From the sequence record PZ445523.1: DNA of 64,000 nt. One strand, given 5' to 3'. The translations under genes were made by a program, and so were the position numbers. Under the pieces are notes generated by a model. It was not told the DNA's origin, searched no databases, and worked only from the letters and a program-made list of their open reading frames with translations. Source of the stretch: a phage. Shown here one piece after another: positions 57,791 to 62,112 of the stretch. Positions within the stretch are counted from its first letter, which is position 1. Every line of letters begins with the position of its first letter.

Positions 57791-58573
57791 ATGGCAGTAG
57801 TTGGAGTTCCTGGCTGGATTGGAAGTTCAGCCGTAAATGAAACGGGTCAGCGCTGGATGAGTCAAGCGGCTGGTCAATTAAGATTGGGTGTTCCTTGCTG
57901 GATGAGTCAATTTGCAGGTCGCTCACGAGAAATTATTCACACGCTTGGAGCAGACCATAACTTCAATGGTCAATGGTTCCGAGATAGATGTTTTGAGGCA
58001 GGTAGTGCACCTATAGTGTTTAATATTACAGGTGATTTAGTATCATATTCTAAAGATGTTCCTTTATTCTTCATGTACGGAGATACACCAAATGAATATG
58101 TTCAGTTAAATATACATGGCGTAACGATGTATGGTCGTGGAGGTAATGGTGGTAGCAATAGTCCTGGCTCAGCTGGGGGTCATTGTATTCAAAACGATAT
58201 TGGTGGGAGACTAAGAATTAATAATGGCGGAGCTATTGCAGGCGGCGGTGGCGGCGGTGGCGGCGGATATTATTCTCCTTTTTCACAAATGAGATTGACC
58301 TTTGGCGGTGGTGGCGGTCGTCCTTTTGGTGCGCCAGGCGGATCTATTGATATGCAATCAGGCGCGACTGGTGGTACTATTTCTTCACCTGGCTCAGGAT
58401 CCGTGAATGGTATCTATAATGGTGGAAACGGTGGTGAAGTAGGTTCCGCGGGAGGTAGATGCAATATTCGCGGTCAAGGATCTGAATATGATGGCGGTGC
58501 TGCTGGTTATGCTGTCATAGGGTCCGCTCCAACATGGCAAAATGTTGGAGCAATATATGGTCCAAGAGTATAA
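57791..58573 (+). CDS. 38: tail fibre adhesin gp38 (T2-type, glycine-rich motifs)
   Basis: 260-aa [28 protein letters not shown]... with several poly-Gly motifs in the C-terminal half. Confidence 0.8.
58241..58267 (+). repeat. tandem 9-nt Gly-codon repeat (GGCGGCGGT x3) inside gene 38
   Basis: ggcggcggtggcggcggtggcggcgga encodes a GGGGGGGGG run. Confidence 0.8.
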
Positions 58574-59260: not shown

Positions 59261-59533
59261 TTATTTGTTCGTATACATCTCTAGATATCGATATACACCC
59301 TCAAAACCCTCGTTGAATTCGTCGATGAGGGTTTTCTTATCTTCTTGAGTTAATTCAGAAACAATTTTACGGAATGAATTCTGATTTAACTTTCTACCTT
59401 CATGCGTTACTCCAATCTCATTCAGAAATGCAATAAAATTAGCACGATTTTCAACAATATCTTCTCTGGAAAATTTAATCAAAATAGATGCAACAGTAAT
59501 AATTTCACGAACTGTATCAATGTTTTTATTCAT
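59261..59533 (-). CDS. asiA: anti-sigma-70 factor AsiA
   Basis: 90-aa ORF MNKNIDTVREIITVASILIKFSRED... Confidence 0.9.
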   Translation of the reverse strand: MNKNIDTVREIITVASILIKFSREDIVENRANFIAFLNEIGVTHEGRKLNQNSFRKIVSELTQEDKKTLIDEFNEGFEGVYRYLEMYTNK

Positions 59534-59545
59534 TAACTATACCAC

Positions 59546-59698
59546 TCAATTAGTTGACTTTGTTATAATATCATCAGACGCTTGATTTGTAAACTGGTCT
59601 GTGTTATTTTCTTCAAAAATTTTTTCTACGAATTCCTTGAACGACTCACGTTCCTGGGCTACATTATGCTCGATTACCTTTTCAAGATTATGACTCAT
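59546..59698 (-). CDS. small ORF overlapping the asiA early promoter (asiA.1 position)
   Basis: 50-aa ORF read by hand, ATGA-coupled to upstream ORF; may not be translated. Confidence 0.3.
   Translation of the reverse strand: MSHNLEKVIEHNVAQERESFKEFVEKIFEENNTDQFTNQASDDIITKSTN
59565..59594 (-). promoter_or_regulatory. early promoter for asiA
   Basis: GTTTAC, 18-nt spacer, TGATATTAT. Confidence 0.5.
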
Positions 59699-59973
59699 TC
59701 GAAATAATCTTCAATTTCGTAATCATGGACATAAATCATTATAGTTTTTAATACATCATCGATACTTTTTCCTGGAGCTGGAATTACGTAGAAATATCCT
59801 GCTTTTGAGAGGTCTTTATAAGTTCCAATCAAGAAATCATTATTCTCAAGATGTAGTTCTTCAACTAATTCATTGACAATTGAGTGGTATAAATTTGGTA
59901 GAAACTTATATAGCTTTTCTAGAATATCAATTTTGATTGTGTATTGAACCACAGACTGAGAATCAATAATCAT
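59695..59973 (-). CDS. arn: anti-restriction nuclease Arn-like protein
   Basis: 92-aa acidic ORF at the T4 arn position with GGGGAAGG RBS. Confidence 0.6.
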   Translation of the reverse strand: MIIDSQSVVQYTIKIDILEKLYKFLPNLYHSIVNELVEELHLENNDFLIGTYKDLSKAGYFYVIPAPGKSIDDVLKTIMIYVHDYEIEDYFE

Positions 59974-60056
59974 AGACCTTCCCCTTATGTTTCTGTTTGC
60001 GATTAGATTCTTTAAACGCTTTCTTCTTATCCTTATGAACAGAAGCTTTATTAAAA

Positions 60057-60275
60057 TTATGTTTTGCGACTAAATTGTTCATAGTGCTGAATTACCTCTC
60101 TTAAACATTTGCATGTGAATGAAAACTTTTTAGCTACACCACATTCAAATATATGTTCTCTTAAATCGCGCGTATCGGTATATCCCATCTCAACAATAAA
60201 ATGCCGTATTAGATTTTTATCTTTATCATTGAGAGAATTAAAATAATCGGATTTTGAATTAATTTCCCTGGCCAA
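60057..60275 (-). CDS. hypothetical protein (arn.1 position)
   Basis: 72-aa ORF. Confidence 0.45.
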   Translation of the reverse strand: MAREINSKSDYFNSLNDKDKNLIRHFIVEMGYTDTRDLREHIFECGVAKKFSFTCKCLREVIQHYEQFSRKT

Positions 60276-60555
60276 ATTGAATCACCTTCAGTTGACGTTT
60301 TAGTTCTTTTATCATCTCTTCGTTCATCGCAATATAAAGATCGCGTAAAGCAGGTTTTAACATTCCATTTACTGGAGAACTAAATGGACATACATAATCT
60401 TTTCCTACAAGCTTTTTGGTGAATTCCATATCACAGAACTTAAATCCCGGCTCATTGGTATAAATTCCCCAATTAGTTGACATCATTTTATTAGCATATT
60501 CCAGTGCCTGGATTTGATTCATAATTCCATCAATTTGAAACTTTTTAATATTCAT
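60259..60555 (-). CDS. hypothetical protein (arn.2 position)
   Basis: 98-aa ORF. Confidence 0.45.
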   Translation of the reverse strand: MNIKKFQIDGIMNQIQALEYANKMMSTNWGIYTNEPGFKFCDMEFTKKLVGKDYVCPFSSPVNGMLKPALRDLYIAMNEEMIKELKRQLKVIQFGQGN

Positions 60556-61016
60556 TAGTAAAGGTCCTCAGAGTACAGTTCTTTTTCACTACCACCACGT
60601 TCAATACGTACTTGTCCAGCGTAAGTTGCAATAATCATTGCTTCTTCACGTGTCCAATAATTACTATATTGGTCAATAAACCCTTGGTCATCATCACAAA
60701 CTTGTTGAGTAACTAATTGAGGTTTAACTACATCTAAAACTTCTGCCATATCTTTAGAATAATGACGAGCACCTGGAATAATAAGAATTCGTCCATCTTT
60801 TAATTTAAAACGATTAGCTGCGCAGACAATTCGTCGTTGATACTTTTGGTTTTCATCCCAGTACGCAGTCTGCCAACAGATTTCAGGAACTTCTTTCAGA
60901 ATATCTTCTTCTGTGCATTTATAACCATGCGCTTTAAATTTTTGAACAAGACTCTCCGGAGTCTCACGAGATAAAGGAACATTTAGCATTTTTAAACGAT
61001 TAATAAATGGGTTCAT
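60555..61016 (-). CDS. hypothetical protein (arn.3 position)
   Basis: 153-aa ORF. Confidence 0.5.
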
Positions 61017-61342
61017 TTAAACCATCCTTTAATACGTTGCCACAAAGTTTTCTGCTGAGCTTTGTTAACACCAATTGAACGAATAACTGGTTGAGATTCC
61101 TGAAATTCTTTATAATCAGCAAGGTAAATTTCGTAAGCTGCATCTGTAAATGAACTTATCGCTGCCATAAAATTATTACGAATACCTATTGGAGCATCTT
61201 TACTTTCACGAATAATCATATATTTACCAGTCTTAATCTTTACAATAGTTCCAAGATAAGCTCCATGGTACCAAATATCCCAACCCTCTTGAGTAGGTTC
61301 TGCACAACGACGAAGTTCATTGACAATTTCTAACTTGTTCAT
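61013..61342 (-). CDS. hypothetical protein (arn.4 position)
   Basis: 109-aa ORF. Confidence 0.5.
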
Positions 61343-61352
61343 TATTTATTCC

Positions 61353-61988
61353 TCACAGTTCAGATGCTACAGTGATTACAGCTTCAATGTTTTCTGCCGA
61401 GCGTTTAATGTCAAGATACACATTACCGTTTTTAGCGATTTTACATGACATTCCGATGTCAGTAAATTTCTGAATATGATGTTCCATCATTTTGTATCCA
61501 AAAATTCGCATATTTCCATTGTTGTTAATTTCAAAATTACGAATTCCGTGAGTACGTTTTTCTAAAATAGCGAGATAGTTACTACGATAAGTTTCAACCT
61601 TTTTAAGAACAAATCCATTTTCATCTAAAAGTTTTAACATGAAGTCTTTATCTTCTTCCATATCGGAAGTAATTTCGCGAGCTTTACGAGTTGCTCGTTT
61701 TTTCAGCAGTTCCGGAGCATTTTCTTGTGCGTATAAAGTTGCTGCATTTGAAATAATATCCTGAGCTTCGCCTGTAATGATTAATCCATCACCAGATTTC
61801 TCTACCAGGCCTTTTTTAATCAATACCCCAATATTACTATTAACTACTGCGTTACCTAAATCTGGATGCACCTCACGAACTTCTGCAGCTGTAATGAAAT
61901 CTTTCTTAGCAATAGTAATTAAAATCGCAGCAGTTTTTTCATTCAGAACATCGTTAGAAGCTTTGATGATGTAAGTTACTTTAGACAT
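61353..61988 (-). CDS. motA: middle-transcription activator MotA
   Basis: 211-aa ORF MSKVTYIIKASNDVLNEKTAAILITIAKKDF...; early promoter and terminator upstream. Confidence 0.9.
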   Translation of the reverse strand: MSKVTYIIKASNDVLNEKTAAILITIAKKDFITAAEVREVHPDLGNAVVNSNIGVLIKKGLVEKSGDGLIITGEAQDIISNAATLYAQENAPELLKKRATRKAREITSDMEEDKDFMLKLLDENGFVLKKVETYRSNYLAILEKRTHGIRNFEINNNGNMRIFGYKMMEHHIQKFTDIGMSCKIAKNGNVYLDIKRSAENIEAVITVASEL

Positions 61989-62029: not shown

Positions 62030-62059
62030 ATAGTACCACAGTATGCTTTGGTTGTAAAC
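62030..62059 (-). promoter_or_regulatory. early promoter for motA
   Basis: AT-rich UP region, GTTTAC, 18-nt spacer, TGGTACTAT; sequence nearly identical to the 45132-45161 promoter. Confidence 0.6.
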
Positions 62060-62087
62060 CATTTTGTGAAAAAAATTAAAATAAAAA

Positions 62088-62107
62088 GGGAGAGCCGAGG
62101 CTCTCCC
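62088..62107 (-). terminator. intrinsic terminator upstream of the motA promoter
   Basis: GGGAGAGCC-TC-GGCTCTCCC followed by TTTTTATTTT on minus strand. Confidence 0.65.
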
Positions 62108-62112
62108 TAAAA

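What the first reader, a model, noticed from the sequence alone, without database searches (positions are those of the whole stretch)
59546..61342. Block of five uncharacterised small early ORFs between asiA and motA
Between the anti-sigma factor gene asiA and motA lie a 50-aa ORF overlapping the asiA promoter, an acidic 92-aa Arn-like ORF, and four further ORFs (72, 98, 153 and 109 aa) joined by overlapping stop/start codons. Their neighbours are host-takeover and anti-restriction genes (asiA, arn, motA, and stp further on), so these are reasonable candidates for additional host-interference or anti-defence functions. I cannot assign any of them from sequence.
Basis: inference. Interest (0 to 1): 0.45.

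Follow-up and report, generated by a model that had tools for sequence, protein, structure and literature searches.

The report
T4 arn operon small accessory genes
This stretch is the already annotated "arn operon" of T4-type phages: seven tightly packed, expressed small genes, of which only Arn (an anti-restriction DNA mimic) has a known job, so it is a real but familiar set of unknowns.

Summary
The ORFs exist as described on the minus strand. They are the T-even genes asiA.1, arn, arn.1, arn.2, arn.3 and arn.4; the window is about 98% identical to T6/T2. The "Arn-like" ORF is Arn itself (PDB 3WX4, E 1e-55). It is the best-conserved member of the block (1,219 phage records) and is not annotated in the T4 RefSeq record.

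All segments are under purifying selection (dN/dS 0.02-0.29), and the six annotated genes are detected as RNA and protein in published T4 omics.

- **Gene models.** The 109-aa arn.4 is the normal form. T4 (ATG>ATA) and T2 (2-bp deletion) carry damaged alleles.
- **Function.** None could be assigned. Arn.3 carries a roughly 95-aa, almost phage-only domain (3,643 clusters) with invariant polar residues and no PDB fold match. Arn.4 has no informative fold match either. Arn.1 has an invariant H-C-C-H quartet.

The anti-defence or host-interference reading stays plausible but unproven. It was already suggested in the literature.

The parts
59546..59698 (-). asiA.1: 50-aa acidic peptide (pI 4.6, net charge -6). 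Its N-terminal leader MSHNLEKVIE is shared with unrelated ORF bodies at the same slot in other T4-like phages.
   Evidence: phrog_3762; 485 phage records; early RNA and late protein in T4
59695..59973 (-). arn: the Arn DNA-mimic inhibitor of McrBC. This is the T2-type allele (I13, S70).
   Evidence: Pfam DM_Arn 4e-54; PDB 3WX4 E 1e-55; 485 phage records, all at least 90% identical; allele comparison; remote homologues at the same slot in other T4-likes, hhalign probability 96.2%, E 2.4e-9
59963..60082 (-). Unnamed 39-aa basic ORF (pI 10.2, net +9), Pfam DUF7230.
   Evidence: DUF7230, 44.9 bits vs cut-off 27; phrog_1359; annotated in T2; 1,219 phage records; dN/dS 0.12
60057..60275 (-). arn.1: 72-aa form with a TTG start preceded by the Shine-Dalgarno sequence AAGGTGA. 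Invariant H41, C45, C57 and H64.
   Evidence: 803 of 808 matches cover at least 80% of the 72 aa; family members 62-74 aa; N-terminal 29 codons, dN/dS 0.22
60259..60555 (-). arn.2: 98 aa, few invariant residues, and no family, PDB sequence or defence-system match.
   Evidence: phrog_1844; 950 records; His-tagged Arn.2 seen by immunoblot in bioRxiv 10.64898/2026.06.19.733364
60555..61016 (-). arn.3: 153 aa. A variable helical N-terminus precedes a ~95-aa core domain (about residues 58-153; precomputed accession PF26092) with invariant R84, H85, Q111, G112, F113, R123, Q135, L147, E150 and Y153.
61013..61342 (-). arn.4: intact 109-aa form. Its N-terminal 41 residues are the most conserved part.
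60262..60271 (-). CCAGGGAAAT, complementary to the ArcZ stretch AUUUCCCUGG. It covers the last codons of arn.2 and nucleotides +5 to +14 of the arn.1 TTG reading frame.
   Evidence: site position reported in bioRxiv 10.64898/2026.06.19.733364; ArcZ sequence verified by Rfam RF00081, 117.6 bits; only exact copy in the window; sequence
60200..60204 (-). GCATT, the putative RNase E motif reported 11 nt upstream of the internal ATG (60188). In the 72-aa gene model it lies inside arn.1 coding sequence.
59565..59593 (-). Sigma-70-like promoter for asiA (TTTACA-17-TATTAT, extended TG), inside the 3' end of asiA.1.
62030..62108 (-). Intrinsic terminator-like hairpin (62108-62087) followed by a sigma-70-like promoter (62058-62030) upstream of motA. 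No minus-strand terminator is predicted from here to asiA, so read-through transcription of the block is likely.
   Evidence: the read-through itself is inference

Best explanation
**Identity (shown, about 0.97).** The region is the T-even 'arn operon'. Seven small genes follow motA without any intergenic gap: arn.4, arn.3, arn.2, arn.1, an unnamed 39-aa gene, arn and asiA.1. Their stop and start codons overlap, which suggests translational coupling. They are transcribed before replication, most simply by read-through from the motA early promoter. All seven are under purifying selection. In T4 the six annotated ones are detected as RNA and protein.

**Function (inferred, about 0.45).** The cassette is a set of dispensable accessory factors aimed at the host, acting early in infection.
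- Arn is a proven DNA mimic that blocks McrBC.
- I expect most of the others to act as stoichiometric binders or inhibitors of host proteins or nucleic acids. These are the acidic peptide AsiA.1, the strongly basic 39-aa peptide (nucleic-acid or ribosome binding), Arn.2 and the small alpha/beta protein Arn.4.
- Arn.1, with an invariant H-x3-C-x11-C-x6-H quartet, is most likely a small metal-stabilised nucleic-acid- or protein-binding module.
- Arn.3 is the exception. Its ~95-aa core keeps a constellation of invariant polar residues (R-H, Q-G-F, R, Q, E, C-terminal Y) across thousands of sequence clusters. That pattern fits an active site or a small-molecule pocket, so I expect an enzyme or ligand binder.

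**Regulation (reported by others, extended here).** The host sRNA ArcZ pairs with CCAGGGAAAU at the arn.2/arn.1 junction. With the corrected arn.1 gene model, this site lies inside the arn.1 translation-initiation region.
For: Identity:
- 98% DNA identity to T6/T2 with matching annotation.
- Arn confirmed by Pfam and PDB.

Real genes:
- dN/dS 0.02-0.29 for every segment, including the arn.1 and arn.4 N-terminal extensions and the 39-aa ORF.
- The order motA, arn.4, arn.3, arn.2, (arn.1), orf39, Arn-like, MSHNLE-ORF, asiA is kept in about 40 divergent T4-like loci where AsiA is only 48-63% identical.
- RNA and protein of all six annotated genes detected in T4.

Transcription: no minus-strand terminator between the motA promoter and asiA; one transcript reported in T2.

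Host-directed accessory role:
- Co-expressed with Arn.
- arn.4 is broken in both T4 and T2 laboratory strains, so it is dispensable.
- Arn and AsiA.1 evolve fast and are confined to Tequatrovirus at BLAST level: 485 records each, all or nearly all at least 90% identical.
- The slot beside asiA carries different gene bodies in different phages.

Arn.3:
- 3,643 clusters and 1,611 phage records across T4-, rV5-, Vi1- and phiKZ-like phages.
- Only 1 of 72,556 plasmids and 2 MAG contigs among 185,579 species genomes.
- Invariant polar residues.
- Confident model with no PDB analogue.
- Structural matches to 'large polyvalent protein associated domain' proteins.

Arn.1 H/C quartet. Charges.

ArcZ.
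Against: - No uncharacterised ORF matches any known anti-defence, defence or host-takeover family.
- The near-absence of the Arn.3 domain from plasmids and bacterial genomes argues against a general anti-restriction role of the kind mobile elements share. It fits a function specific to virulent phages equally well.
- The conserved core (arn.4, arn.3, arn.2, orf39) is stable in order and sequence across the subfamily. That is less typical of arms-race genes than the behaviour of Arn and AsiA.1.
- The polyvalent-protein matches are weak (E 7e-3 to 0.12).
- The per-ORF mechanisms rest on composition and conservation patterns only.
- The ArcZ work is a single preprint.
Confidence: 0.45

Rival explanations
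1. Host-physiology takeover rather than immunity. The proteins retune host transcription, nucleoid structure, RNA decay or translation for phage benefit, like the neighbours AsiA, MotA and Ndd, and do not target defence systems.
For: - The block sits between two transcription takeover factors and is co-expressed early.
- Arn is also reported to inhibit H-NS DNA binding (reference cited in PMC12871103).
- The 39-aa peptide is extremely basic.
- Arn.1 has a possible metal-binding quartet.
- The core genes are stably conserved across the subfamily, as expected for targets that do not vary between hosts.
- The Arn.3 domain is confined to phages and nearly absent from bacterial genomes, hence from prophages.
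Against: - No homology to any known takeover factor.
- arn.4 is inactivated in two laboratory strains without obvious cost.
- Arn and the asiA.1 slot show the fast turnover typical of conflict genes.
Confidence: 0.3
2. Phage-internal functions. At least Arn.3 (an enzyme) and Arn.1 (a small regulator) act on phage DNA, nucleotides or phage gene expression rather than on the host.
For: - The invariant polar constellation in Arn.3 suggests catalysis or ligand binding.
- The domain is widespread among large virulent myoviruses, including families I recall as carrying modified DNA (own knowledge, not tested).
- It has no conserved partner gene outside T4-likes, so it works alone.
- Position directly after motA in about 40 loci.
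Against: - No match to any nucleotide-metabolism or DNA-modification family or fold.
- The domain also occurs in phage groups I do not recall as having modified DNA (phiKZ-like, rV5-like; own knowledge).
Confidence: 0.2
3. Some of the smallest ORFs (asiA.1, the 39-aa ORF) are not functional proteins. They would be remnants, or reading frames kept open by overlapping regulatory DNA or RNA.
For: - asiA.1 overlaps the asiA promoter.
- In T4-type phages it is only 50 aa, while proteins with the same leader reach 88-112 aa elsewhere.
- The 39-aa ORF overlaps both neighbours and is not annotated in T4 RefSeq.
Against: - The 39-aa ORF has 17 invariant residues across divergent phages, dN/dS 0.12 and a Pfam family.
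- The MSHNLE leader is conserved at the amino-acid level through synonymous codon changes.
- AsiA.1 protein was detected in T4 proteomics.
Confidence: 0.05

Closest known systems
Bacteriophage T4/T2/T6 genes asiA.1, arn, arn.1, arn.2, arn.3, arn.4 (the 'arn operon')
   Same: Same genes in the same order and orientation between asiA and motA. Protein identity is 95-100%.
   Different: - The window keeps an intact 109-aa arn.4. T4 has lost the ATG and T2 carries a 2-bp deletion.
- Its Arn is the T2-type I13/S70 allele.
- The T4 and T2 records annotate arn.1 as 43 aa, whereas comparative data support 72 aa.
- T4 RefSeq omits the 39-aa gene.
Arn DNA-mimic protein (Pfam DM_Arn PF22134; PDB 3WX4)
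   Same: The 92-aa ORF is this protein: 181 bits and E 1e-55, acidic with pI 4.55.
   Different: None of the other ORFs resembles it. The label 'anti-restriction nuclease' on Arn.1-4 in GenBank, UniRef and PHROGs looks like locus-name propagation. Remote Arn homologues that Pfam misses occupy the same slot in other T4-like genera.
Domains of phage 'large polyvalent proteins' (Iyer et al. 2017; cited from my own knowledge)
   Same: The Arn.3 model matches regions of three proteins named 'Large polyvalent protein associated domain-containing protein'. Foldseek probability is 0.94-1.0. Long fusion proteins carrying the domain at the C-terminus exist.
   Different: E-values are weak (7e-3 to 0.12). 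No Pfam LPD family matches Arn.3 or the fusion proteins by sequence. In most phages the domain stands alone at about 95 aa.
Phage small-molecule 'sponge' proteins (Tad1, Tad2, Acb2)
   Same: Small, stand-alone, widespread in phages and expressed early, with a conserved polar pocket-like residue set. The resemblance is in logic only.
T4 internal-protein locus with its conserved capsid-targeting leader (own knowledge)
   Same: A short conserved N-terminal leader (MSHNLE[NK]V[IV]E) is attached to unrelated bodies at one hypervariable locus. The leader contains L-x-E and I-x-E, like prohead-protease sites.
   Different: The leader sequence is unrelated to MKTYQEFIAE. The locus is transcribed early. 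Packaging and cleavage are untested.

Membership tests
Arn (DM_Arn, PF22134), applied to the 92-aa ORF | Sequence match above the Pfam gathering score, and identity to the solved T4 Arn | tested here: met
   181.2 bits against a cut-off of 26; 3WX4 E 1.1e-55 over residues 1-92
Arn (DM_Arn, PF22134), applied to the 92-aa ORF | Strongly acidic, DNA-mimic charge | tested here: met
   pI 4.55, net charge -9
Arn (DM_Arn, PF22134), applied to the 92-aa ORF | Inhibits McrBC restriction of hydroxymethylcytosine DNA | not testable with these tools
   Activity known from the literature for T4 Arn. This allele differs at F13I and N70S.
'Anti-restriction nuclease' label, applied to Arn.1, Arn.2, Arn.3 and Arn.4 | Homology to Arn or to any known anti-restriction or nuclease family | tested here: not met
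   No Pfam, NCBIfam or PADLOC family at meaningful E-values. No PDB sequence match for Arn.2, Arn.3 or Arn.4, and none for profiles of the Arn.3 core and Arn.1 families.
DUF7230 (PF23876), applied to the 39-aa ORF | Sequence match above the gathering score | tested here: met
   44.9 bits against a cut-off of 27, E 1.2e-11. A relative scores 37.1 bits.
PF26092 (Arn.3 domain), PF26821 (Arn.4), PF26827 (Arn.1) | Membership of the Pfam family precomputed on all close homologues | tested here: inconclusive
   Every homologue carries the accession. These models are absent from the local Pfam copy, and I do not know their names or descriptions.
Large-polyvalent-protein-associated domains, applied to Arn.3 | The domain occurs as a module of multi-domain polyvalent phage proteins | tested here: inconclusive
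   Foldseek BFVD hits to three such proteins, E 7e-3 to 0.12, probability 0.94-1.0. Fusion proteins of 244-434 aa exist but carry no Pfam domain.
Signal-sponge or known anti-defence folds, applied to Arn.3 and Arn.4 | Structural similarity to a solved anti-defence protein | tested here: not met
ArfA-like ribosome-rescue peptides, applied to the 39-aa ORF | Sequence similarity to ArfA | tested here: not met
   A profile of the family found nothing in PDB sequences at E up to 10 (ArfA chains are there to my knowledge). Pfam reports only DUF7230.
Tad2/DUF2829, applied to the MSHNLE-leader proteins of 88-96 aa in relatives | Pfam DUF2829 match | tested here: not met
   No families at E up to 1

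The most novel reading that the evidence does not exclude
The ~95-aa core of Arn.3 (precomputed accession PF26092) is a new-fold catalytic or small-molecule-binding domain, almost exclusive to phages. It would destroy, sequester or modify a host molecule, for example an immune signal or a nucleotide, early in infection.

Separately, the host sRNA ArcZ may act directly on the arn.1 translation-initiation region, not on an untranslated spacer. A host RNA would then set the translation of a phage gene.
Probability: 0.15. Interest if true: 0.65.

Novelty: already known. Interest (0 to 1): 0.3.

Why it matters
T4 is the reference phage, yet this cassette, sitting between its two master transcription takeover genes, is still functionally blank apart from Arn.

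- The corrected gene models matter for anyone deleting, cloning or screening these genes: a 72-aa Arn.1, a 109-aa Arn.4 that is defective in both T4 and T2, and a conserved 39-aa gene missing from the T4 reference.
- T4 and T2 are poor backgrounds for studying arn.4.
- A published 'intergenic region' used to dissect ArcZ/RNase E control appears to be arn.1 coding sequence.
- Arn.3 marks a very large phage-specific domain family with a confident model and no known fold. That makes it a sensible target for structural and biochemical work.

Tried and rejected
- **Family and sequence searches.** Pfam, PHROGs, NCBIfam and PADLOC on all ORFs gave only Arn, AsiA, MotA and DUF7230. The weak hits (Thr_dehydrat_C, PD-T4-9_B, REase_II, the Nif11 leader, Prok-E2_B) all fall far below their cut-offs and were discarded. 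PDB sequence and profile searches for Arn.2, Arn.3, Arn.4, the 39-aa family, the wide Arn.3 family and Arn.1 found nothing.
- **Arn.3 fusions.** N-terminal parts of ten long Arn.3-domain fusion proteins carry no Pfam domain.
- **Arn.3 partner gene.** No conserved neighbour exists outside T4-like phages.
- **Annotated labels.** 'C-N hydrolase superfamily' and 'polynucleotide kinase' appear on a few Arn.3 relatives. Fold and family searches do not support them.
- **Tad2/DUF2829 idea** for the 88-96-aa MSHNLE-leader proteins: no Pfam hit.
- **ArfA-like idea** for the 39-aa peptide: no support.
- **Internal middle promoter.** The MotA box TGCTTTA (60352-60346) lies only 9 nt from TATATT, which is not canonical spacing.
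- **Rfam scan of the region:** no credible RNA family.
- **Tool limits.** The scan that did run used T4-type motifs only.
- **Literature.** No paper assigns a function to arn.1-4 or asiA.1.
Full report
**What is there.** All genes of the block lie on the minus strand. The ORF list gives asiA (59261-59533), then ORFs of 50 aa (59546-59698), 92 aa (59695-59973), 39 aa (59963-60082), 72 aa (60057-60275, TTG start), 98 aa (60259-60555), 153 aa (60555-61016) and 109 aa (61013-61342), then motA (61353-61988). Pfam confirms AsiA and both MotA domains. The 2.9-kb region is about 98% identical to T6, T2 and hundreds of other Tequatrovirus genomes. In the T2 and T4 records the ORFs are named asiA.1, arn, arn.1, arn.2, arn.3 and arn.4. 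The finding is therefore a known, named gene block.

Sizes, coordinates and overlapping junctions are as described. A sigma-70-like promoter (TTTACA-17-TATTAT, extended TG) lies at 59593-59565 inside the 3' end of asiA.1, just upstream of asiA. The 'Arn-like' ORF is Arn itself: Pfam DM_Arn at 181 bits and PDB 3WX4 at E 1e-55. It overlaps both neighbours, matches Pfam DUF7230 (44.9 bits, cut-off 27) and phrog_1359, is annotated in T2 but not in T4 RefSeq, and occurs in 1,219 of 50,697 phage records.

**These are real genes.** I fetched 78 loci carrying an Arn.3 relative. In about 40 T4-like loci AsiA is only 48-63% identical and MotA 33-68%. Even there, the order motA, arn.4, arn.3, arn.2, (arn.1), 39-aa ORF, a ~90-aa protein, an ORF beginning MSHNLE, asiA is kept. 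Pairwise dN/dS is 0.02-0.29 for every segment, in the range of AsiA and below MotA (0.03-0.41). In published T4 omics, arn, arn.2, arn.3 and arn.4 are early RNA and early protein. arn.1 is early RNA and middle protein, and asiA.1 is early RNA and late protein (PMC9697503 supplement). No minus-strand terminator is predicted between the promoter upstream of motA (62058-62030, preceded by a terminator at 62108-62087) and asiA. A 2026 preprint reports arn.4 to arn as one transcript in T2. Read-through from the motA promoter is my inference.

**Distribution.**

| Protein | Phage records with a tblastn hit (of 50,697) |
|---|---|
| Arn.3 core | 1,611 |
| 39-aa ORF | 1,219 |
| Arn.4 | 1,002 |
| Arn.2 | 950 |
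| Arn.1 (72-aa form) | 808 |
| Arn | 485 |
| AsiA.1 | 485 |

All Arn hits, and all but two AsiA.1 hits, are at least 90% identical. Arn and AsiA.1 are thus the fast-evolving, genus-restricted end of the block, and the rest is a conserved core. Arn is not truly absent elsewhere. The ~90-aa proteins ending in 'EDYF' at the same slot in other genera align with Arn over their full length (hhalign probability 96.2%, E 2.4e-9), although Pfam DM_Arn misses them.

**Gene-model corrections.**

- **arn.1.** T4 and T2 annotate 43 aa from an internal ATG. In most relatives that Met is Leu. The 29 upstream residues hold 11 of the family's 24 invariant positions (SKSDYFNSLN..K..I..FI.E). Relatives start with ATG, GTG or TTG at the equivalent place behind a Shine-Dalgarno sequence. 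803 of 808 phage matches cover at least 80% of the 72 aa, and database members are 62-74 aa. The N-terminal codons have dN/dS 0.22.
- **arn.4.** All 55 homologue clusters are 107-119 aa except T4's 68-aa entry, and the first 41 residues are the most conserved. T4 has ATG>ATA at the start codon. T2 has a 2-bp deletion. The window has the intact gene.

**Regulatory element.** The preprint places ArcZ pairing at +285 to +294 of arn.2. It also reports an RNase E motif, GCAUU, 11 nt before the internal ATG, inside a '70-nt intergenic region'. In the window these are CCAGGGAAAT at 60271-60262 and GCATT at 60204-60200. I verified ArcZ from an E. coli genome (Rfam RF00081, 117.6 bits); it contains AUUUCCCUGG. 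The 10-mer occurs once in the window, which alone is not beyond chance. With the 72-aa model, the 'intergenic region' is arn.1 coding sequence, and the ArcZ site is nucleotides +5 to +14 of the arn.1 frame, inside its initiation region. This is an inference that the preprint's authors did not consider.

**Search for function.** No Pfam, NCBIfam, PADLOC or PDB sequence match of any weight was found for AsiA.1, Arn.1, Arn.2, Arn.3 or Arn.4. I did not run a PDB sequence search for AsiA.1.

- **Arn.3.** All homologues carry the accession PF26092, which is absent from the local Pfam copy.
  - A profile search of 1.84 billion representatives found 3,643 clusters (1,425 at E of 1e-10 or better). Most are stand-alone proteins of 83-110 aa that match only the C-terminal ~95 residues.
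  - R84, H85, Q111, G112, F113, R123, Q135, L147, E150 and the C-terminal Y153 are invariant across that wide family.
  - In the viral structure library the significant matches are uncharacterised phage proteins. Three weaker matches are named 'large polyvalent protein associated domain-containing protein'.
  - The domain is present in T4-, rV5-, Vi1- and phiKZ-like phages. It was found in 1 of 72,556 plasmids and in 2 MAG contigs among 185,579 species genomes; that scan was limited to T4-type motifs.
  - It has no conserved neighbour outside T4-likes.
- **Arn.1.** H41, C45, C57 and H64 are invariant, which suggests a metal site.
- **Arn.2.** It has few invariant residues.
- **Charges.** AsiA.1 has pI 4.6 and net charge -6. 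The 39-aa peptide has pI 10.2 and net charge +9.

**Interpretation.** Identity is settled. For function I commit, at about 0.45, to an early-expressed, dispensable, host-directed accessory cassette. Most members would be stoichiometric binders, and Arn.3 an enzyme or ligand binder. The main rivals are host-physiology takeover that does not target immunity (0.3) and phage-internal roles for Arn.3 and Arn.1 (0.2). That the smallest ORFs are non-functional is unlikely (0.05). No experiment or homology here demonstrates an anti-defence activity. The literature states that the functions are unknown and offers the same guess.

**Verdict.** This is a correct observation of an already known block of T4 hypothetical genes. 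The added value lies in the corrected gene models, the overlooked conserved 39-aa gene, the wider Arn family, the size and novel fold of the Arn.3 domain family, and the reinterpretation of the ArcZ site.

Noticed in passing
window 59669-59698 (-); L011-L018, L023, L028-L034, L037, L053, L061: The N-terminal leader MSHNLE[NK]V[IV]E is conserved at the amino-acid level through synonymous codon changes. It heads unrelated ORF bodies (50-58, 88-96 and 112 aa) at the slot next to asiA. The logic resembles the capsid-targeting leader of T4 internal proteins (own knowledge), and the leader contains L-x-E and I-x-E motifs. AsiA.1 protein is classed 'late' in T4 proteomics.
   Followed up: partly
window 61220-61342 (-); L003 3335-3457 (T4); L001 (T2): The conserved N-terminal 41 codons of arn.4 are disabled independently in the two classic laboratory phages. 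T4 has its start codon changed from ATG to ATA, and T2 has a 2-bp deletion (CCATGGAG to CCATAG). The window has the intact gene.
   Followed up: yes
window 59695-59973 (-): The window's Arn carries I13 and S70, the T2 type. T4 has F13 and N70. A 2026 preprint (PMC12871103) reports that N70S abolishes T4 Arn's inhibition of the PUA-Cal-HAD defence system, so this allele may lack that activity.
   Followed up: partly
window 60057-61342 (-); GenBank, UniRef and PHROG annotations of relatives: Arn.1, Arn.2, Arn.3 and Arn.4 are widely labelled 'anti-restriction nuclease' (phrog_4452, for example, is even filed under DNA, RNA and nucleotide metabolism). None shows any similarity to Arn or to a nuclease. 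The label appears to be propagated from the locus name.
   Followed up: yes
L010, L009 and L019 versus the window: There is mosaicism inside the block. L010 is 94-100% identical in protein from asiA to arn.2, but only 77% in Arn.3, 68-83% in Arn.4 and 51% in MotA. L009 and L019 are diverged only in Arn.3 (88% and 79%). This implies recombination breakpoints around arn.3.
   Followed up: no
window 59303-59335 (+): A 14-bp-stem hairpin followed by a T-rich tail lies on the plus strand, just downstream of the holin gene t. It is probably the t terminator, embedded in the asiA coding sequence on the opposite strand.
   Followed up: no
window 60346-60352 (-): A MotA-box-like TGCTTTA sits inside arn.2, only 9 nt upstream of TATATT. 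That is closer than the usual middle-promoter spacing, so it is probably not a functional middle promoter.
   Followed up: partly
window 57791-58573 (+): A 260-aa glycine-rich ORF occupies the position of gene 38. It looks like the T2/T6-type gp38 adhesin rather than the T4-type assembly chaperone, which fits the window being a T2/T6-like phage.
   Followed up: no
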